Part shown: piece by piece, positions 1-38,175 of the stretch
Numbering within the stretch: position 1 is the stretch's first letter
How the letters are laid out: each line of letters begins with the position of its first letter
DNA from: Marsupella aquatica
Taxonomy: Eukaryota > Plantae > Marchantiophyta
Assembly (NCBI GenBank): GCA_973895155.1
Contig: OZ316899.1
Span: 16,023,974-16,087,973, forward strand
Direction of reading: 5' to 3'
DNA: 64,000 bases
Notes under the pieces: generated by a model
The model's database searches: none
What the model saw: the letters and a program-made list of their open reading frames with translations, nothing else
What the model was told of the DNA's origin: nothing
Made by a program: the position numbers and the translations under genes

Positions 1-681
1 TTGGTAGGTCCGCCTATGATGAATCCAGGTGAGGGTTATGTGGTAGTGGAGGGTAGGTTGGGATTGTCATATCTCACTGGAAAGGCGTTGCCTCTTGTGA
101 AGGACTTCTTGTCTGAGATATTCAAAATCCCTCAAGGCATACCCACTAATGCCCCTATAGAGATATGGGGCCGTCATTGGATAGTGCAATCATCTTCCCT
201 TGGTGTTGATGTAGGATTTGGGTTATTTGCTTTGGAGGACATTGTGGTCCATCCAAAGCCATGGCAAAGAGGTTATGATGGGGAACACTTATTTCCTTAT
301 ATTGGCCCTATATACACTGCCAAGAATTGGAACATTATTTTGCGGCAACAACCATCATGGGGAGTGTATGCATTGCAAATGGATTCCGATCTGGATGAGG
401 TCCTCAAGAGGCCTTGGCATTGTAGGATGATTGATGGTGATCCTGTGCGATGTGATAACATCGCTGGGTATATCAATAGTACCAAAGGGAGAGGACGAGG
501 ACTTCAACCAAATGTAGAGTGGGTTCAGATTTTTGGGGCACCGCCACCACCTTACTATGTGAAGCATATGGATGACCATGTTATGACTGTAGCCATTAGG
601 ACTATTAGGGCTGGTGAGGAACTCTTTTGTGACTATGATTGGAACGCGCCTAAGATGGCCATACGGTGTCGTCCTTCATAG
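1..681 (+). CDS. SET-domain (putative lysine methyltransferase) protein, 5'-truncated by the window edge
   Basis: Open for 226 codons. GFGLFALEDI matches SET motif I (GxGLFAxxDI). NIAGYINS...QPN resembles NxARFINHSCxPN. AIRTIRAGEELFCDY matches AxRDIxxGEELxxDY. No post-SET cysteines. Confidence 0.82.
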   Translation: MVGPPMMNPGEGYVVVEGRLGLSYLTGKALPLVKDFLSEIFKIPQGIPTNAPIEIWGRHWIVQSSSLGVDVGFGLFALEDIVVHPKPWQRGYDGEHLFPYIGPIYTAKNWNIILRQQPSWGVYALQMDSDLDEVLKRPWHCRMIDGDPVRCDNIAGYINSTKGRGRGLQPNVEWVQIFGAPPPPYYVKHMDDHVMTVAIRTIRAGEELFCDYDWNAPKMAIRCRPS

Positions 682-997
682 CACATACAAACATGTGTAT
701 ATGTTCACTTTTATAAAAATATTACTTGAGTTATTCTCTAATTGGTTTCAAGAGCTATGGAGTCTTTTGACTCATTCATATATGGATGTCTCAATTGTTG
801 GTTGAGAGACCTGGACTTATATCATTCTCATTGATTTCTTTTGTGTATGATAGAATGCATTTGTTCAGCCAGATATTGAGGTATTATCACGAGCTGTGCG
901 ACAACATCTCCTTCAGGCCATGGATTGTAGGCAAGGGGGTCAACCTTTTGAGGATATGGACATTCCACATGAACTACCTAATGCTACTTAAGAAAGA

Positions 998-3900
998 GTG
1001 GATGAGGACCGGGCTATGGATGAGTTGATGCACCAATTCATGGATGCAGATGAGGGTGATCCCCGGGGTGATCATGACCCAGGTGATTGGGAGGACATTG
1101 ACTTACCTCCTCCTCATAGGCATACTCCTTCACGGAATCCACACTCGCACCAATGGGAGGAGGCTCAAGAGCATGCACGGACTCATCTTTTTGAGGGGTC
1201 TAGATTATCTCGTCTTTCAGCAATCATGTTATTACTGAACTTGCAGCAAATACATGGAGCAAGCAACTTGCTTCTTGATGGTATTTTCAGGACATTGCAT
1301 GATCGTATGTTACCAGAGGGGAACAACTTGCCAGCATCATGGAAAGAGGCGAAGAAAGTGTTGAAGTCCATAGGCCTCAAGTATGAGGTCATACATGCTT
1401 GTGTGAATGATTGTGTTTTGTTCAGAAAGGAGCACTCAAATGCTCTTACATGTCCTGTGTGCAACGCGCCAAGATATTGTGAGGATATGTTGACAGGAAG
1501 AGTACCTCAAAAGGTTATGAGGTACTTTCCCCTTATTCCTCATTTGTGTCACCAGTTTTGATGCACAGAGTTGGCTAAGTATATGGTATGGCATTCCCAA
1601 CACCGTTCAGACACTACTCAAGATCCAACCATGCGCATAATGGTTGACTCTCTTGCAAACAGATTTGTGGAAGAGCGTTGGGGTGAGTTCAAGACTGACC
1701 CTCGTCATGTTTGCCTTGGTTTGGCATCAGACGGCATTAGCCCATTTGCACTGGCCGGCAAGGCCAAACCATACTCTGTATGGCCAGTAGTCCTCACTAA
1801 CTACAACATCCCACCATGGATGGCTATGAAGAAGGGTCATTTGCTCCTATCTATGATTATTCCTGGCCCTAAGCAAGTGAAGAAGATTGATGTATACTTG
1901 CAACCGTTGATTGAGGAGCTACAAAAACTTTGGGGGGGAGTGGATTGCTATGATGGTCGAGTGCATACAGGGGGCTTACCCCGTGAGTTTCAGCTCAAAG
2001 CCATTCTTATGTGGACCATGCATGATCTTCCAGGTACCCAACTCTTTATAAATTAAGTATGGCTTGTGCAACTACCCATATATATATATATCATTCTGTT
2101 TATTTTTTTCCCTTTGATTTGGTTTCAAAACTTAATGGGTTTTAATTTGTGACCATTGTTTGTGAAGGGTTTGGATATATTTATGGCTTGCAAACTTCTG
2201 GATATCGTGCTTGCCCAACTTGTGGACCAGACTTGGAGGGAGTGGCGCGCCCAAAGTCTACCACCCTGCGGAAGATAGTTTACATTGGTCACACAAAGTA
2301 TCTTCCTGAGGGGCATGACTGGAGGTATGATCCATTTTTGTATGACACGGATGAGGGCCAGCCAGACACAAGACCTCAGCCTTTACCGAAGGACCCAATA
2401 TATTGGAAGGAGGTATGGGAGAGGGTGACTGATCCAGATGACCCATTACCCTTGGCTAGATGTGGCATGATCCGTTTGTCTGCATTGGCACAACTTCCAT
2501 ATTGGGAACACATGCCAATAAATCATCTATTGGACCCTATGCATATTGAGGGGAATGTTGGGAGGTCATTGATCAGCCATCTATATGGAGAGAAAAACAA
2601 CAATTGGAGGGAGAGTTGTGAGGAGATGGGGATGCATGGCCTTCATGGTTTTTGGCCATCTATGGACCCTGACCCTCCCCTTACTATCCATCCCCCATGG
2701 GTTTTCACAAGGAGTGAGCGAATCGAGTTTTGCAAGCGGATAGGGTCAATGCGGTTTCCTATAGGGTATGGTGCCAATCTTCGCAAGGCATTTGGTGGAG
2801 ATGACTCTCCAAAATGGCCAGCTTTCTTGAAGACCCACGATTATCATTGTCTATTGCAGCACGTTATTCCAATTGCTATTATTGGATTGGGCAGCGAGGA
2901 TCTTCGGGATGCACTTTGGTCATTGGGTAGATTGTTGAGATGGGTTTGTCAAAAGGAGGTCAACAAGGGAGAGATTGCTGCCATGGAGGTATTTGGAGTG
3001 GAGGTTGTGTGCAAGTTGGAGTGAGCACTCCCTCCTTCCTTCTTTGATGGTCAAGTTCATTTTCTTGTACATCTAGTGCGTGAAGTAGCCATTGCAGGCC
3101 CAGTACATTGTTGTTGGATGTATTGGGTAGAGCAATTCATGGGAGTCATGAAATCATATGTATCAAACCGTGCTGGGGTGGAAGGTAGCATTGCCGAACA
3201 TCACCTTGGAGCAGAGAGTATGTTCTATTATACAAACATTGTGGCTACACTTGATCCAAATGCTCCAAGGGGTTGGATAGATGAGTCAGCACGAGAGGCA
3301 TATTATGAGGAGGATAGACTCACTGGAGCAAAGGGAGAACAACTACTAGGCTCTGCTGAACGTCTGCAACTCACCACATTCATGTTGTATAACTCACCAG
3401 AGATTGCAGGGGAGTGGACTGCATTTTATGAGGAGAAGAGTAATAGTCGTTGGCCACGCCTCTTCCCCAAGTTTCTCCCATATATGAAGGAGAAGTTGAC
3501 ATAGATTGATGCCTTGTTGGGTCAGGGTGAGAGTGTTTTGCACTTTCCGAAGGTCACCAATGACATTCGCACCCTTGTTCATGGTCCATTACTCACGGTC
3601 ACAACTCGAACAGCCATGTGGTCAAATGGGAGGCATTTTCAAATCCAACATCTTGATATGAAGAGAGCAGCAACACAAGATTGTGGGGTGATGGGGTGGT
3701 TCACCCAAGAGTCACAAAGTAGCACTTTTGACCGGAATCCAATACGTTCAACTGTGGCCCACTATGGGAAGATAGAGGAGATCCTTATCATAAATTATCA
3801 TGCCCATACAACCTTGGAGGAGGTGGTGTTCAAGTGCAAATGGTTTTGGATGAATCTTGTTGGTCATAATCGGACCTGTGAAGAAGATGCATGTGGGTTC

Positions 3901-4119
3901 ACACGATTGAAGACCAGTGCAACTAGTGTCATTAGTTCCAATTGGAGAACCTCAGATCCATTTGCATTTCCCCATCATTTGGAGCAATCTTTCTATCTTC
4001 CTTATCCGAATGACCCAGAGTGGTCCATTGTTATGCCTTACATCCCTCGCTCATGATCCATTGTTCAAGACAAGCCAAGTGTAGTTGTAGTAGAGGATTT
4101 GGACCCCTCATTACAATAG
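998..4119 (+). pseudogene. CACTA TNP2/TnpD-like transposase (Transposase_21, DUF4218, DUF4216 type), decayed
   Basis: Motifs IHACVNDCVLF, CPVC, LGLASDG, SVWPV, NIPPW, DVYLQPLIEELQKLW, HDLPG/FGY...ACPTC, LDPMHIEGNV, KTHDYH, GPVH..WMYWVE, EGSIAE, YGKIEEI, FKCKW. GT-AG intron ~2034-2167. Premature stops end at 1561, 3024, 3504 and 4056. Confidence 0.92.
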
Positions 4120-4309
4120 ATGCGGCCTAGGTAAATCCCCTATATGTTTTATCTTCATGGATATTATATACATTTTTTCATGTCATTTCACATGTGCCCA
4201 AAGATTCATTGGTTGGATATAATTTTGGATACAACTGTATATAGTCCCTTGACACAATCCAAATTGCAATCCCTAAGTAATATATGCATTTGAGTCACGT
4301 CCATTTATT

Positions 4310-4815
4310 CCCGATACCATTTCCCATGCTTAAAACAACGGAATCCCATTGGAAGACCTCCTTGTTCAAATCTTGACCTCGAACCACATATATTCAATCT
4401 AAACCCTTTCGGACTCAATTTCTGATACTTGTAGCATCGGAATTATTTGTGATAAACACTACTTTGGAAAACATTTGCGATACCCACCCTATCGGAAGCA
4501 CTAAGCGATACATTTTTCATTGCAATATTTCCATAATTTACTCAATCGGACATCGAATATGATACTTCAGGGATCGGAAATTTAGTAACAATTTTTAGAA
4601 GAGGGGTCCGATAGTCAAGACATCGGATATGTTCCGATATTAGGAGTATTGCAAATGATGTCCGATGTTTTGGGAATCGGATACTGGGTTTCCGAAGCTA
4701 TGGGGATCGCAAGTTCCGATACTTTTGTTAACAAAAGTTTGCGTAACTCTGGCTATCGGACGCCTGTTTCATGTTTCAGCGGGAGCATCGGAAAATGAGC
4801 AAAAATGTACTAGTG
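4310..4815. repeat. CACTA-1 right subterminal repeats and TIR
   Basis: Many direct and inverted copies of (T)CCGATA / ATCGGA, ending in TAGTG at 4811-4815. Confidence 0.8.
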
Positions 4816-6000
4816 GTGGTCCTGGAAGGGGCCTCAAGTAAACTGTCTCTAACTGTTGCTGATCGAGATGCTGCCCACACCTATTACCTACATAACCATG
4901 TACAGGTTGCACCATGGCTCAGGTACATGATAACTACATCATTTTGTTTATGGTTGTCTCAGTGTTCAGTAATGTAGTCTAAATGTGTTGTCACAATATG
5001 AGAGTATTTCTTTTATGATATCTGACATTGTTCTTTGCTTGCTTGGAAGGTTGTATGAGTCAGAAGAGGAGGAGCGAAGGATAGAAAGGGAAGCTGTTGT
5101 AAGATAGAATAATGCAGAATGACGACAAGGTAGATGTCAAGCAATGGCCTATCCTGCTGAATTTTCTTCCATTCCTTTTGGAGTGTGGTTCAGGGATACA
5201 ATACACAAGGCTAACCTGGATGACAATGAGGACAAGTTGTTGTTGACTGCAATTTCTTTTCCACCAAGCCAGAAGGCTTTGTCTCACAATTCAATGATGG
5301 CTTTTGGGAACCATTACAGAGTGATGCGCTGCAAAGATAGGAATGGTGAATGGCGTGAGATGTCCACTCTCAGGGACACTGATTGTCAAGGATATGCTAC
5401 ATTTGATTCAGGGGCAGCCAAAACTTTCCATGAGCAGATCAGGGACGAAATTGGGGTGAATTTGGCCAAGCTTACATATGTGGGGGTTCTGACACAGATA
5501 CTTGTGCTTGATTATGGACCTTTGTTACATTTTGAACCAACCATAATCTTGAAGGCAAAGTGGGTGCAGTCTAAGTGGGGAGAGGAGAGGTCTAATCCAT
5601 CAATGAAACATGATGAGACTGGCCTATGGCTTGCCAATTTTAATATGCCTTATCCCTCAGCTAAGAAATTGGATTATGTCTTGCCCAATCAGATTGAGCA
5701 GGTTGTCTTCTACCCAAACACAGCCAAGGCCTCTTGGAGACATGTTCTCCATGAGGAAGGGAGGTCTCAACGAGTTGTTGAGGGTATAAATGACCTTGAG
5801 TTTAATGATATTGTGGATCGTCATGAGGCTGTTGAGGCTGAGCTTGTTGCAGCAGCTAACAGACGAGTGTCCTTGGATGAAGGAGAAATTGTAGTTTTTC
5901 AGGAGATGGCAGTGTTGACAAGAAGTGATAGTGATGATGATGATGTCTGGGAAGATGAAAAGATTCAGATGAAGAGTGAGAATGTGCCTCTTGGGGCAGG
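4816..6000 (+). pseudogene. C-terminal part of the CACTA-2 transposase (DUF4216-like)
   Basis: VVLEGA...AAHTYYLHNHVQVAPWL, then MMAFGNHYRV, TFDSG, YVGVLTQILVLDYG, LKAKWV, YVLPNQIEQVVF, WRHVL. Confidence 0.8.
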
Positions 6001-6049
6001 AAGTACTGATTGCTCTTTGGTGATAGTGTTTTTTATGCAGTTTTGAATT

Positions 6050-9048
6050 GAAATGCATGATCGGTCTGGGGTGAAAGGTTCCGAGAATGCCTATGAGGCA
6101 CAGAGGAATAGGAACATAGCAGCCAACAAAGCTATACTTGACCGGTTTGTAGGAACTGCTACAAGTGATTTAAAGTATGTACTCTATCCCTATATAGAAT
6201 TTATGCCTTGACTTTATTACTAATGGTTCACACTCATGACATTGTCACAATGATTGCAGTTTACAGGGAGAGGCAAGGCGCAAAAGTCTATCTAAGTTGT
6301 CAAAGAAGATTGAACAAAATCAGCCGTCTATAGCAAAGCGTAGGAGTTCACGATTACTTGGCATGCACTTGGAGAAAATCATGGAGAGTGACAACAGTGG
6401 GAGTGATGGGTCTAAAAACTCAGTTGACACAAACTATGGGACAGGTTTAAGTGATGGCTTTGAATCAGATGGTGTTGAAGAGCCATGTAAGGTAGGAGAA
6501 GACTCACTGTCAATGTTTACTTCAATTGAAGCTAATTGTATTAATTGTCCAATTTCTGTATATCTTGATTTGGTGCTAGTGTTACTAAATACTTGAATGT
6601 GCAGTGTTATATATCCACAGGCTCCCCGACAGTCAAGAGCTAAATATTATGTGGATCCTAGGACAAAGGAAGTGAGTTTATGTAAGTAATTATTAATTAC
6701 CTCACTTGCCATGAGCTTGTTTTTGACTTGCCAAGTGATTCCCGAGTTCATAGATTCTCACAATTGCAGATTGACTGTCACTAGTTACATTAATGTTTGA
6801 CTTGCTAACAGGATCTCTTTGGTTGGTTGTGGTAGTGACACCCTTGCCAAGAGCATCTACTCGTGATCTGGATGATGGAATTGTCACAAAAAGATCAGAA
6901 CAAACATATGTACGACAATCATCTCATGCCGCAAAGAAGCAATGGGAAGAGAACACAAGCGAGCATCGCAAGTTGGGCATGAAGAAAGTTGCAATCACTG
7001 TATGTTGCTTGTGAAAGATCATGTTTGTGATTTATTGTTTGTCCTCTGTTATTTATTGTTTTCTTATGATGCATTGTGTGCAGATTTGGAACAATGATGT
7101 TGATCCTAGTGATCCATATCGGGCACGTTGGGGAGATGATCTTCGTGCTGTGTGTATGGATAAACTGAATCCTTCTATCCGTGAGATTAAGAAGCAAGAC
7201 TCAGGGGTTCTTCTTCATGTTTAAGCTGTGTTGGAGAATGATTGGGAGTATCTGCAGGGGACTCTGTCAATGAAGAAGTTCAGGTCTCATTGTTCAACAG
7301 TAATGAAAGCACAGCGAGCAAGACTCCACAAACATTTTCAGGAAGGTGGGAGACGCCTGGACAAGAAGCCCCCTGAGAATGTGAAACCTGAACATTGGAA
7401 GGCATTGTGTGAGTGGTGGCTATCTCCAGAAGGGATGTCTAGCATTGACAAGATGAAGTATGCAAGATCTAAAGTCATTAATCCATCAAGGGTTGGACGA
7501 GGTGGCTACCGTGGGAAGGAGTCTGACTTTGTAAGTATACAAGATTCATTTACAGTATTATGAATGTTTGTAAACAACAAGTAGGCTTACAGCATGTGTC
7601 TTCCTCTGTTTTAGCAATTGGTATGCAAAGAAGCAAGAAGCTTCATTCTGATATGTTTTGTTTGGTTTCATTGTTCAAAAGAGAAAAAGAGGGGAAAGTC
7701 CACCTCTATCAGAGTTACGTTCCAAAGATGATAGAATTAATCCATCAAGTGTGAGATCTGTCACAGGACAGGCCACACCATCTCATCAGAGAGGCAGAAA
7801 GTCAATTGTGAGTATAGTTCACAAACCCAATTTGTGATTTTCAAATTGCCAAGTTTATGTGATATCCACTAACTTTTGTATGATTGGTTAATGGTTGCAG
7901 ACACCAATTTCCAAGTCTATGATGGGAGACAATACAGATTGTGATGAGCGTATGTTGACTAAAATTTGGATGCAATAAATATTGGGATAAGTGCTGGGAT
8001 AAGTGTTGGGTTTGACAAAATAATAATTGTTTTGGCAAAATAGAACCACAGTGAAGATGTGGAAGAAACCAGAACTGTCCCACTTGGGCTGGGACCATCT
8101 TCAATGTCCTCACGAATGAGTTCAGTTCTGAAAAGTCATTCGGGTCTGAAAAGTCATTCAGGCTGTAGTACTTCAGCTATGAAACTAGACTTTTTGGTGG
8201 ACTTGACCAAAGAAAGTATGTTCTTTACAGAGGACAATTAAAGTAGTGTAATCAAGCATGCATGACTTGGATTAGTGAATGTTTTCTAATGTCTTGAAAT
8301 GTTTATGGGCAGTTGAAGATGATCAGGGGATTGATCTCAATGCTGATGCGGAATACAATAATGTTGACCCAATGATTGTGAAACAAGAGATCAATGAAGA
8401 AACAAAGGTGGTATACAGTTTGCCTGCGCAGCATGATCAAGCAGGAAAAGTAAGTGGTGATTATTAATGTGTTCATTATCCCATGAATTTGTAATGTGAA
8501 CCTAGTAGGGCATGTTTATGTAAGTTGTCTCACCCTAATCTGTTTTGCAGAAGATAACTGAAGTTGTGACACCTGAAGCTATTTGTACAAGGTCATCTGA
8601 AGAAGCCATCGTTGCAGAGTTTCCAAAGTTGGTACCTTCACCCTTTGTCTTCAAGGTGAGCAAAAGCAAATTATTGCTTTCAATACATGTCTTATTCATT
8701 TATTTGCTATAAGTTGTCATTAACAAGCCCAATGAAATGATTGTATGAGTCTAATGAAATGGCTGTGTTATCTTGTTGATGTGTGCATGACAGTTTAAAG
8801 TAGGAGACATGATGAAATTGAAGTCACCAATGAAGCAGCAGGTGATTGCTATTGCAAAAATTGATGGAGTATGTGGAGTTGATCGATATTGTGACAACCC
8901 AATTCCTATTGGCTTCTTGATTGTCAAAGTTGTTTCTATTTTGAATGGAGATGCACCTCTCCAAGAAAAGCACCCAAAAGGCTTAGTAGCCCTCAAACAT
9001 GTGAAGGGGCACCCATTTTTGTGGAGGCAGAAGTTAATGAGGAAGTAG
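6050..9048 (+). pseudogene. Multi-exon TnpA/Tnp1-like CACTA accessory gene; exon boundaries approximate
   Basis: Exon ~7084-7530 has RARLHKHF...PPENVKPEHWKALCEWWLSPEG...RVGRGGY (Ptta/En-Spm Transposase_24-like). Last exon ~8790-9048 has IAKIDG...PIPIGFLIVKVVSI..GDAPL...FLW (Tnp1-like). AT-rich GT-AG introns lie between. Confidence 0.65.
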
Positions 9049-36560: not shown

Positions 36561-38175
36561 CACTAGTGCATTTTGGGGCCTAGTCCGATTCTCACCTTCC
36601 GATGATGCCAAGGTTTATGATTCTATTCTAATTGGATGTACGATCCAACCGTCCAAGCCAACGCGTATCGGACCTTGCCATTAAACTAGAATTGGACTAT
36701 CACCATTCCAACCCAATCACAAATGGGCCGTCACTACGATAGGAAAAGTTGGATTGTTTGTCCAAGCCAGAAACAATTGGACCGCTTGGTCCGATTCTTC
36801 TCCAATGCTAGATGAATTGGAACCCCTTTCCAAAGAAAACATAAGCACATTTTCCGATCAAATTAGAATTGGAAGTTGCCATTCAATACAAATTGGAAGT
36901 TTTCAATGCGCATGGAATTGGATATTCCAAGGTTTTTAGGATTGGACAATTGTTTCCAAGTGGTAGGCAATGGGATTCATATTTGCAATACAAATACAAT
37001 GAGATCTTGGTCCAATTGTTGGTGCAATGGACTTTGTGGTCCAACTCTTTGGGAATTGGAAGTGTGTCTACGATTCATTTAGAATTGGAACCTTTGGCAA
37101 GGCCAGGGCGTCATCCCTTATTTGCTCATGGAAAGTATTGACCGGTCCTGAATCATGTGTAGCATAGCCTTTAATTTGTAGTCTGTGTTCCTAGGATGAG
37201 AAATCTTATGCCAATGGCCATTCCTATCTTTACAATGCACTACCCTATAATGGTTACCAAAAGTTTTCGTTAAATTGTAAGTCAAAGCCTTTTGACTCGA
37301 TGAAAAAAATTCTTGCGGTCAACAAAAACAGTTGTCTTCATTGTCATCTAGGTCAAAATTCTATATATATTGTATCCCTAAATGAACTTAACCACGCCCC
37401 AAAAGGAATTGTAGCAATTTGAGGAGGACATTGGTTTGTTTGGCGATCTAACATTGATAGGTAAATTGGTTCCCATATGGTCAACATAGAGCTTTCATAA
37501 TTGACCACGCAACCCAATGTCATGATACGCAAGAATTCATCAAGAATTGGCCCAAACTGTGGATCTAAACGAACTCAGAGGTGTATAAAAACCCCAGGCA
37601 CTCTATAAGAAACATCAAATGTGCCTAAGGTTGCATGTACAACGCAAGAGCTAAGAACTAGGAAGTTAAGCACCTATTGAGAGGAATAGTGTTTGGGATG
37701 GGTGACCTTACTTCTCTAGTAGCCCACAATCTTGCTAAGACTTGAAGCCTCACACAAAAGAATACACCACTTAGCTAGTGATATGCAACCCGTAGAGGAG
37801 TAGGATCAGGCCGGGGCAGCGCTAGGGCCGCCAATTGGGGAAATCGCACTTCAATTTTTGATTTGATTCTAATTGGGACCCCTGTCCCATTGTAGTACAA
37901 TAGCACAATAGTTTCCGATTGCGAAGTACTTGGAAATGGTCATGCCATTCTCACATAATTGGACAATTGTTTGCCATTTCTTTTGAATTGAATGCGTCTT
38001 TCCGATACTAGTTTAATTGGACAAGTCCAATCTCGGTCCGATAACGCTAACCCGATTGTTTGGGGATTGGATGATACAATGCGACTTCAATCGGAACATC
38101 GGTAAAAACTGCAACAATCCGCCGAAGGGGTCCGATTTGAGGAGAATTAGATTAAGGGTGAATTCTATACTAGTG
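36561..38175. mobile_element. Non-autonomous CACTA element (1.6 kb)
   Basis: Ends CACTAGTGCATTTT...TATACTAGTG. 3-bp TSD CTA (36558-36560 and 38176-38178). CCGAT and AATTGGA subterminal repeats. Host protease frame VVHR|LRVDV rejoins. Confidence 0.92.
37654..37708 (+). promoter_or_regulatory. 5S rRNA-derived fragment spanning the internal control region (box A, intermediate element, box C)
   Basis: AGAACTAGGAAGTTAAGCACCTATTGAGAGGAATAGTGTTTGGGATGGGTGACCT compared with plant 5S AGAACTCCGxAGTTAAGCG...AGTAGTACTxGGATGGGTGACCT. The 5S 5' and 3' stems are absent. Confidence 0.6.

What the first reader, a model, noticed from the sequence alone, without database searches (positions are those of the whole stretch)
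1..4815. CACTA transposon with an uninterrupted SET-domain ORF directly upstream of its transposase
Seen: a SET-like ORF ends ~300 bp before the transposase on the same strand. No CACTA terminus or subterminal repeats lie between them, so it appears to be inside the element. It is intronless and stop-free over 226 codons, while the transposase has four premature stops. The usual NHS motif reads INST, and there is an insertion before PN. Known: SET domains methylate lysines; typical CACTA cargo is TnpA, ULP1-like proteases or host fragments. Inference: a TE-encoded histone or protein methyltransferase could remodel chromatin at the element, or it may be catalytically altered.
Basis: partly seen in the sequence, partly recalled or inferred. 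Interest (0 to 1): 0.78.

Follow-up and report, generated by a model that had tools for sequence, protein, structure and literature searches.

The report
Liverwort transposon with nested SET exon
A multi-copy plant jumping gene, likely from a liverwort, carries a conserved SET-fold gene inside the predicted first intron of its transposase gene, and likely splices one small zinc-motif exon either onto the transposase or onto this predicted lysine-methylating enzyme, which could let the element mark its own chromatin; the transposase of this copy is broken.

Summary
SET identity: Pfam E 3.8e-8, fold Z about 11.8. Contigs of organisms A and B bridge SET to Tnp2. Four Riccia gene models join SET-family sequence to Tnp2. 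Seven of 8 Tnp2-relative contigs of 3 kb or more match a SET-relative contig in exact length.

In relatives, a zinc-motif exon resembling the normal Tnp2 N-terminus (PF13963) lies upstream of SET. SET is therefore nested in the transposase gene, with predicted in-frame splices to either product. No RNA was available.

Corrections: Tnp2 has five premature stops, not four, and the stop-free SET is not significant (p about 0.3). INS is the family's motif (27 of 28), not decay. The catalytic Tyr is kept, and listed variants are mostly silent (19 of 30).

SET-carrying DNA transposons are known (HarbingerS, MuDR, Plavaka, Helitron). This scan already reported the same layout in peat moss (five notes). 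Verdict: new variant of a known kind; activity and target untested.

The parts
1..681 (+). 3' part of the SET exon, with its own stop codon; the 5' part lies outside the window (close relatives have about 100 more codons upstream)
   Evidence: PF00856; pLDDT 83.1; SET fold; longer N-termini of P0001, P0002, P0021; motif conservation
682..853 (+). AT-rich spacer: predicted 3' UTR of the SET form and end of the predicted first intron of the transposase gene; predicted acceptor TAG at 851-853
   Evidence: sequence; diverged family members stop aligning at 642-696 and resume at 844-850 (table 5); no terminus or repeat family
854..2033 (+). Tnp2 transposase exon (predicted phase-0 start); premature stops at 989 and 1559
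   Evidence: PF02992, E 1.7e-39; 67% to a Calypogeia fissa Tnp2 model; base 989 reads C in all contigs laid over it in four runs
2034..2167 (+). GT-AG intron in the transposase gene, 134 bp
   Evidence: the GT..AG join restores the frame; diverged contigs do not align across 2036-2146/2166
2168..4119 (+). Last Tnp2 exon (rest of PF02992, DUF4218, DUF4216); premature stops at 3022, 3502, 4054; terminal TAG 4117-4119
   Evidence: base 3502 reads G in nearly all contigs laid over it
4331..4801 (.). Right subterminal repeat region (ATCGGA-type motif in both orientations); the only CpG-undepleted part measured
   Evidence: (CpG obs/exp 1.02 against 0.32-0.38 in the coding parts)
4802..4815 (-). Right terminal inverted repeat of the CACTA type
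   Evidence: one contig of run X4 matches from 4816 onward and carries other DNA before it, i.e. an empty site (table 7)
4816..4818 (+). GTG, candidate 3-bp target-site duplication (left copy not visible)
   Evidence: sequence; left end outside the window, no genome held

Best explanation
This is a decayed copy of a multi-copy CACTA transposon family in which a conserved SET-domain exon sits inside the predicted first intron of the Tnp2 transposase gene, so that one transcription unit likely yields two proteins sharing a zinc-motif first exon: the transposase and a predicted zinc-motif-SET lysine methyltransferase that would act on the element's own chromatin. Shown: SET fold, SET-Tnp2 linkage in many copies and distant families, an excess of silent changes in SET, zinc-motif DNA upstream of SET in relatives, the right terminus. 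Inferred: the two splices (about 0.7), with the SET form ending at its own stop and a polyadenylation site in the spacer; catalytic activity (about 0.6); action on histones at cognate elements to keep them expressible, in the place that TnpA holds in angiosperm Spm (about 0.4 given activity). The element is probably about 5.5-6 kb with no TnpA ORF (inferred).
For: Linkage in close copies: contigs covering 590-1265 (X2, depth 262, 11 differences) and 550-1265 (X4, depth 345) bridge SET to Tnp2. Diverged subfamilies do too: an X5 contig of 1298 nt aligns at 191-696 and 850-1000 with 140 other letters between. Linkage in distant families: Riccia sorocarpa models P0058, P0060 (2 of 3 long hits) and P0155, P0161 (2 of 64 scanned) have SET-family sequence followed by Tnp2. 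Seven of 8 Tnp2-side contigs of 3 kb or more (7 of 14 on the SET side) share an exact length with the other side (lengths). SET and Tnp2 distances correlate over 9 pairs (Spearman 0.51, permutation p 0.022). Nesting: 3 of 4 metagenome loci (L001-L003) have a C-x-C-x2-C...H exon upstream of SET; two hit PF13963 below cut-off (E 5e-4, 1.4e-3); the motif lines up with the Tnp2 N-terminus of angiosperms (P0076, P0078). In L003 the Tnp2 N-terminal segment follows SET (16.9 bits; best of 1000 shuffles 10.1). Candidate donors and both kinds of acceptor are all phase 0. Zinc motif and SET lie in one ORF in P0097 (Logan contig of 2141 nt) and in Riccia models P0094, P0100. Selection: 19 of 30 listed differences in SET are silent against 22-27% expected (p 3e-5 or less); G74, N153, N159 and Y212 are invariant wherever covered among 28 family rows. 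Precedent for tolerance of the His change: PMC4002121.
Against: No RNA run was listed for this DNA, so neither splice was seen here; splice sites were picked by eye and partly by frame, so their phase agreement is not an independent test. Two of three earlier scan notes with RNA data (e1-7364039, e1-7364157; unchecked here) saw only the splice to the transposase. The left end, exon 1 and left TIR of this copy are outside the window. L004 has a truncated SET followed by repeats and no Tnp2; L001 and L002 end 225-330 nt after SET without a Tnp2 match; L003's SET exon has a premature stop. Contig pairing is by length only. The two Calypogeia models (SET, Tnp2) are on one chromosome but 487 accession numbers apart and were not counted. 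The canonical His of the NH-x-C motif is absent and the protein ends 0-15 residues after the catalytic Tyr, with no post-SET region; the related Legionella SET domain needs its ankyrin part for activity (PMC10653858). No substrate class stands out: Set1, EZH2, SETD8, SET7/9 and NSD2 tie at Z 11.1-11.8. The Mantel-type test ignores shared ancestry and rests on 9 pairs. The zinc motif is not shown to bind DNA.
Confidence: 0.5

Rival explanations
1. Same nested layout, but the SET protein acts on a non-histone target, most likely the transposase itself or a host silencing factor, or binds methyl-lysine or SAM without catalysis and serves as a regulator or decoy.
For: His of the NH-x-C motif is replaced family-wide; no post-SET region; no histone-specific SET class is singled out; a shared N-terminal exon could bring both products together (inference).
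Against: The catalytic Tyr (24 of 24 covered rows), GxG and Asn are kept; the best PDB profile match is an active histone enzyme with Phe at the His position (activity from PMC10653858, passages).
Confidence: 0.22
2. The SET exon is a separate nested gene with its own promoter in the first intron, and the zinc-motif exon is spliced only to the transposase.
For: Many relatives have an in-frame Met early in the SET exon; two earlier scan notes report no zinc-to-SET splice in RNA (unchecked); no RNA evidence here.
Confidence: 0.15
3. The enzyme writes a repressive mark (H3K27 or H3K9 type) that limits the element's own activity or silences neighbouring host genes.
For: EZH2 is among the top fold and profile matches; a large fraction of TEs in Marchantia carry H3K27me3 (bioRxiv 10.1101/2022.10.24.513474, passages).
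Against: The EZH2 match ties with activating-mark enzymes; the characterised accessory proteins of plant DNA transposons, VANC and TnpA, activate their elements (10.64898/2026.08.24.746577, passages).
Confidence: 0.1
4. The SET ORF is a neutral captured host fragment, a neighbouring host gene or part of another insertion.
For: The left end is not visible; some SET-family members are not seen with Tnp2 (L004; P0059 with a RING region; Calypogeia P0136; Adiantum and Ginkgo models, context unknown).
Against: High-depth bridging contigs, the same order in Riccia, silent-change excess while the spacer diverges beyond alignment, no border between SET and Tnp2.
Confidence: 0.03

Closest known systems
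En/Spm (CACTA) of maize and Arabidopsis Spm3: TnpD transposase and TnpA from one alternatively spliced gene (10.64898/2026.08.24.746577, passages)
   Same: CACTA terminus, subterminal repeats, Tnp2 transposase, predicted second product from the same transcription unit.
   Different: The second product is a SET-fold protein nested 5' of the catalytic exons, not a TnpA/Ptta DNA-binding protein; TnpA has no reported enzyme activity in the passages read and works through host demethylases; no TnpA ORF lies between Tnp2 and the right end here.
Plavaka (EnSpm superfamily) accessory gene PAG2 of red algae (bioRxiv 10.1101/2025.02.11.637652, passages)
   Same: A SET domain carried by an EnSpm-superfamily DNA transposon, function untested.
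   Different: PAG2 is a separate gene fusing an N6-adenine methylase (PF01555) to SET in 17-19 kb elements with three accessory genes; here SET has no such partner domain, sits inside the transposase gene, and the element is probably about 6 kb with a PF02992 transposase. Kinship of the two SETs was not tested.
HarbingerS and SET-carrying MuDR families of Phytophthora; SET-carrying Helitrons (PMC12730594 introduction; primary Repbase reports not seen)
   Same: DNA transposon with a SET histone-methyltransferase-like gene as cargo.
   Different: Other superfamilies and hosts; no report seen of a nested exon sharing the transposase's first exon.
VANDAL/VANC anti-silencing system of Arabidopsis
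   Same: Element-encoded accessory protein proposed or shown to act on the element's own chromatin.
   Different: Mutator-like element; VANC induces DNA hypomethylation and is not a SET protein; its effect is shown, the one here is inferred.
SET-domain lysine methyltransferases with a non-canonical NH-x-C motif: Legionella LegAS4/RomA and PRDM proteins
   Same: GxG motif, Asn and catalytic Tyr kept while the His is replaced.
   Different: Only 16-29% identity over aligned parts; no evidence of close kinship; LegAS4 needs ankyrin repeats and PRDMs carry C2H2 arrays, neither present here.

Membership tests
CACTA/EnSpm DNA transposon | Terminal inverted repeats ending in CACTA...TAGTG (PMC4158355) | tested here: inconclusive
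   Right end present at 4802-4815; left end outside the window, no genome held.
CACTA/EnSpm DNA transposon | Tnp2-type DDE transposase with C(2)C and H(3-4)H motifs (PMC12730594) | tested here: met
   PF02992, DUF4218, DUF4216; C-x2-C at residue 409 and H-x3-H at 691 of the spliced frame. Assignment of the three acidic residues is from recalled motifs, not a call.
CACTA/EnSpm DNA transposon | Subterminal repeats | tested here: met
   12 copies of an ATCGGA-type hexamer in 4331-4815; direct and inverted arrays.
CACTA/EnSpm DNA transposon | 3-bp target-site duplication | tested here: inconclusive
   Right flank GTG; an empty-site contig ends its match exactly at 4816; left flank not visible.
CACTA/EnSpm DNA transposon | Second ORF (ORF2/TnpA) | tested here: inconclusive
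   None between 4119 and the right end (2 of 2 short ORFs without Pfam hit); the part upstream of the window is unseen; relatives' contigs of 5.4-5.8 kb leave little room (inference).
CACTA/EnSpm DNA transposon | Dispersed multi-copy family | tested here: met
   434-1963 contigs laid per run at 80-100% identity in 4 of 4 runs; several subfamilies. Depth is not a copy number.
SET-domain lysine methyltransferase | SET fold | tested here: met
   PF00856 above cut-off; model pLDDT 83.1; Foldseek E 2e-7, VIA Z 11.8, rmsd 2.3, 123 aligned.
SET-domain lysine methyltransferase | GxG SAM-binding motif and C-terminal catalytic Tyr (PMC10653858, PMC6379669) | tested here: met
   G72 25 of 26, G74 26 of 26, Y212 24 of 24 covered rows; aligned to the equivalent residues of solved SETs.
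SET-domain lysine methyltransferase | (H/R)xxNHxC motif (PMC4002121) | tested here: not met
   Asn kept in 28 of 28, His replaced by Ser in 27 of 28, no Cys. Active enzymes lacking it exist, so this lowers 'canonical SET', not 'works like a SET enzyme'.
SET-domain lysine methyltransferase | SAM-dependent lysine methylation of a substrate | not testable with these tools
   Needs an assay.
En/Spm-type alternatively spliced two-protein unit | Both spliced RNAs exist | not testable with these tools
   No RNA holder listed; only phase-compatible sites and gene models.
Plavaka PAG2 | N6-adenine methylase (PF01555) fused to SET in a separate accessory gene | tested here: not met
   No PF01555 in the window ORF or in 64 of 142 relatives scanned; the window ORF is 5'-truncated but full-length relatives P0001, P0097, P0100 show none.
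HarbingerS | Harbinger-type transposase | tested here: not met
   The transposase is PF02992/Tnp2 with a CACTA end.

The most novel reading that the evidence does not exclude
An ancient land-plant lineage of compact CACTA elements has replaced TnpA with its own chromatin-writing enzyme: one zinc-motif exon is switched by splicing between the transposase and a histone methyltransferase that is steered to the element's subterminal repeats and writes a protective mark. It would be the first plant transposon shown to write histone marks on itself, kept since the split of the main liverwort lineages and mosses, with remote relatives in ferns and Ginkgo.
Probability: 0.22. Interest if true: 0.88.

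Novelty: new variant of a known kind. Interest (0 to 1): 0.62.

Why it matters
Known plant anti-silencing proteins (VANC, TnpA) recruit host machinery; a transposon-borne histone methyltransferase would act directly. The family is small (about 6 kb), has two predicted products and relatives with open SET frames, and occurs in liverworts, close to tractable models. That makes the open question of what transposon-carried SET domains do, posed so far only from sequence in oomycetes and red algae in the papers read, directly testable. The interest is tempered because SET cargo in DNA transposons is in print, this copy is dead, and this scan has already noted the layout in peat moss.

Tried and rejected
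1. Left end and TSD: no genome is held; contigs running 533 nt past position 1 exist (X4) but their letters are not returned. Left TIR, exon 1 and genome-wide counts remain open.
2. RNA: no RNA holder listed; no evidence either way.
3. Viral or prokaryotic origin: 0 of 35 candidate stretches in viral contigs and 0 of 34 in genome contigs were relatives. These scans use one or two short patterns, so they are weak. Viral SETs match only at fold level, 9-21% identity. ESM Atlas look-alikes were haptophyte, NCLDV and PR/SET clusters at 0.95-0.96: leads only. A second Atlas search on the zinc motif gave no usable hit. NCBIfam gave no hit for the SET proteins.
4. 'SET better preserved than Tnp2': rejected. 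Two non-silent differences (codons 37 and 131) look private to this copy.
5. Calypogeia SET and Tnp2 models as neighbours: dropped, accession numbers 487 apart; chromosome-scale contigs were left out of the length match.
6. Plain BLAST did not link L003's 3' end to Tnp2; only a profile did.
7. A first spliced translation used a wrong acceptor offset; corrected.
8. No second SET copy in the window. The terminus at 36561 belongs to a remnant related to the flanking element, not to this one.
9. Substrate class from folds: no winner. No tree with host, viral and bacterial SETs was built; the family tree holds only family members.
10. Literature: searches listed no paper whose title or abstract start describes SET in plant CACTA elements; one search was swamped by the common word. 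Most subscription papers and Repbase Reports are not in the library; supplements were not read (those of the bioRxiv preprints are closed and may list related elements).
11. No complex prediction was run.
Full report
Observation. Window 1-681 is a 226-codon open frame cut by the window edge. It scores above the Pfam cut-off for SET (E 3.8e-8). An AlphaFold2 model from a 22-sequence alignment has mean pLDDT 83.1 and matches only SET-fold proteins at the top of both structure searches (Foldseek E 2.4e-7; VIA-align Z 11.8, rmsd 2.3 over 123 residues). Downstream on the same strand lie PF02992, DUF4218 and DUF4216. With a GT-AG intron at 2034-2167 the transposase reads 1043 codons from 854 to 4119 with five premature stops, all one C-to-T step from a sense codon; contigs read C at 989 and G at 3502, so at least these two are private to this copy. 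The right end is a 14-bp CACTA terminus at 4802-4815 behind 12 ATCGGA-type repeats. No terminus or repeat family lies between SET and Tnp2. The contrast between an intact SET and a decayed transposase is not significant (p 0.31-0.34; Fisher 0.59).

The SET ORF belongs to the element. No genome is held, so I used public contigs. In four runs of organisms A and B, 434 to 1963 contigs lie on 1-5200 at 80-100% identity. Organism A may be the source and is not independent. Contigs at 590-1265 (X2) and 550-1265 (X4) bridge SET and Tnp2 at depths of 262 and 345, while other contigs in the same runs have depths of 12 and 32; the tool warns that depth is no copy number, so this is a hint of tens of copies only. 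More diverged subfamilies also bridge: five joints leave the window at 642-696 and rejoin at 844-850, so both coding parts are conserved while the spacer is not. Organism C covers SET but, in that call, nothing from 715 to 1000. One X4 contig matches from 4816 onward with other DNA before it, an empty site showing that the element ends exactly at the terminus and was inserted into a second CACTA-like element.

Distant families show the same order. The SET ORF has 23 relatives among 112 candidates, the best named one from Calypogeia fissa at 69%, and 150 at E up to 0.001 among 1.84 billion cluster representatives. The transposase N-terminus also has a Calypogeia model as best hit (67%). The host is therefore probably a liverwort (inference; the window groups with P0001 and P0002 at 100/99). 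Of 3 long hits, 2 are Riccia sorocarpa models with SET-family sequence before Tnp2; 2 more turned up among 64 of 142 further proteins scanned. This pairs them by length only, and chromosome-scale contigs were left out. Over 9 pairs, SET and Tnp2 identities correlate (Spearman 0.51, p 0.022), without correction for ancestry. Remote relatives are named from Adiantum and Ginkgo, context unknown.

SET is nested in the transposase gene. The metagenome scan gave 4 loci from 359 candidates. In L001, L002 and L003 a Ser-rich exon ending in C-x-C-x2-C...H lies upstream of SET. Two of the three hit the transposase-associated domain PF13963 below its cut-off (E 5e-4, 1.4e-3), and the motif lines up with the N-terminus of angiosperm Tnp2 models. 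In L003 a segment after SET matches a profile of this clade's Tnp2 N-terminus (16.9 bits; 0 of 1000 shuffles reach it). Candidate donors after the zinc exon and acceptors before SET and before Tnp2 are all phase 0, as is the window's acceptor at 851-853, which agrees with where relatives resume aligning. I chose these sites by eye, partly by frame. Zinc motif and SET share one ORF in P0097 (a 2141-nt Logan contig, either spliced RNA or an intronless copy) and in Riccia models; P0155 joins zinc motif, part of SET and Tnp2. Against: L004 shows a truncated SET and no Tnp2, L001 and L002 end before any Tnp2 match, and L003's SET exon has a stop. L003 begins with short repeat arrays 310 nt before exon 1; adding its left part (1881 nt) to the window's 854-4815 gives about 5.8 kb, close to the longest paired contigs (5428-5790). 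No ORF with a Pfam hit lies between Tnp2 and the right end. A TnpA-less element is therefore likely but not shown.

Is the SET likely active? Among 28 family rows, N153 and N159 are invariant, G74 and Y212 are invariant where covered, and the His of NH-x-C is Ser in 27. INST is thus a family signature. The best PDB match to a 36-sequence profile is Legionella LegAS4 (E 6e-6), which has Phe at that position and methylates H3K14 (PMC10653858, passages). PRDM proteins lack the motif and several are active (PMC4002121, passage), and the C-terminal Tyr is reported in all demonstrably active SETs (PMC6379669, passages). Of 30 differences listed in SET, 19 are silent against 22-27% expected (p 3e-5 or less); these are 29 of the 40 best-supported rows shown (159 not shown) plus one, classed site by site. 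Against activity: no post-SET region, and the LegAS4 SET domain alone is inactive. Substrate is unresolved: Set1, EZH2, SETD8, SET7/9 and NSD2 tie.

Mechanism. Most likely one promoter in the left end drives a transcript whose zinc-motif exon is spliced either to the SET exon, ending in the spacer, or over it to the Tnp2 exons. The SET form would share the transposase's N-terminus, be drawn to the element or to the transposase, and methylate histones there to keep the element expressible. The layout is shown; the splices, activity and direction of effect are inferred (0.7, 0.6, 0.4 given activity).

Comparison with what is known. SET cargo is in print for HarbingerS and MuDR families of Phytophthora (PMC12730594, introduction), for Helitrons, and for red-algal Plavaka elements of the EnSpm superfamily (PAG2; bioRxiv 10.1101/2025.02.11.637652, passages). 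Two products from one spliced unit are known for Spm, where TnpA activates cognate elements through host demethylases (10.64898/2026.08.24.746577, passages). The general CACTA definition is from PMC4158355 (passages). I saw only passages of these papers, no supplements; PMC11982613, PMC2200798, PMC4919437 and 10.1101/2022.10.24.513474 were also seen as passages. Searches listed no paper on a SET exon in plant CACTA elements; the library is incomplete.

Earlier scan notes. My reading was recorded, before searches showed five notes on the same layout in peat moss. They agree on nesting; on RNA, one reports a rare zinc-to-SET splice and two did not see it. I could not test these claims. One note led me to the PAG2 passage.

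Verdict. Real feature; new variant of a known kind; a probable liverwort member of a bryophyte-wide family already noted by this scan. Interest 0.62.

Noticed in passing
window 4816-~9900 (+): The element is inserted into a second CACTA-like element: a 307-codon ORF (5123-6046) weakly like the Tnp2 C-terminus (phmmer E 1e-5) and a weak Ptta/Transposase_24 hit at 7225-7560 (E 0.025). It is far deeper in organism B runs than in A. It might supply TnpA-like function; untested.
   Followed up: partly
window 36561-37428: Second CACTA terminus with the same 14 bp bar one mismatch, ATTGGA-type subterminal repeats and a minus-strand remnant 72% identical to 5152-5448: two distinct families share a terminus, which would allow cross-mobilisation.
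   Followed up: partly
window 4121-4815: CpG is not depleted in the subterminal region (obs/exp 1.02) whereas SET and Tnp2 are (0.32-0.38). This could reflect protected, unmethylated ends or simply the CG-containing repeat motif.
   Followed up: no
window ~9920-64000: Nested Gypsy-like retroelements with RT, RNase H, integrase remnants and extra coiled-coil and Pro-rich ORFs, several on the strand opposite to pol, in multiple diverged copies; not scanned against families.
   Followed up: no
proteins P0136/P0229 (Calypogeia fissa): A distant member of this SET family with repeated Cys/His motifs at the N-terminus (weak DUF5763 hit, E 0.09), on two contigs; may be another carrier or a domesticated gene.
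   Followed up: no
proteins P0194, P0199, P0200, P0201, P0205; P0203: Near-identical SET-family domains fused to unrelated upstream sequence in gene models, one named from Adiantum nelumboides, and a Ginkgo model: suggests multi-copy, mobile relatives in vascular plants.
   Followed up: no
L004:154-1104: SET family member cut off before its C-terminal motif and followed by GGGACA-type inverted repeats: probably a deletion derivative with SET next to an element end.
   Followed up: partly
window 37-174 (SET residues 13-58): A conserved, confidently modelled hairpin-plus-helix region precedes the SET core across the family; it was not searched on its own.
   Followed up: no
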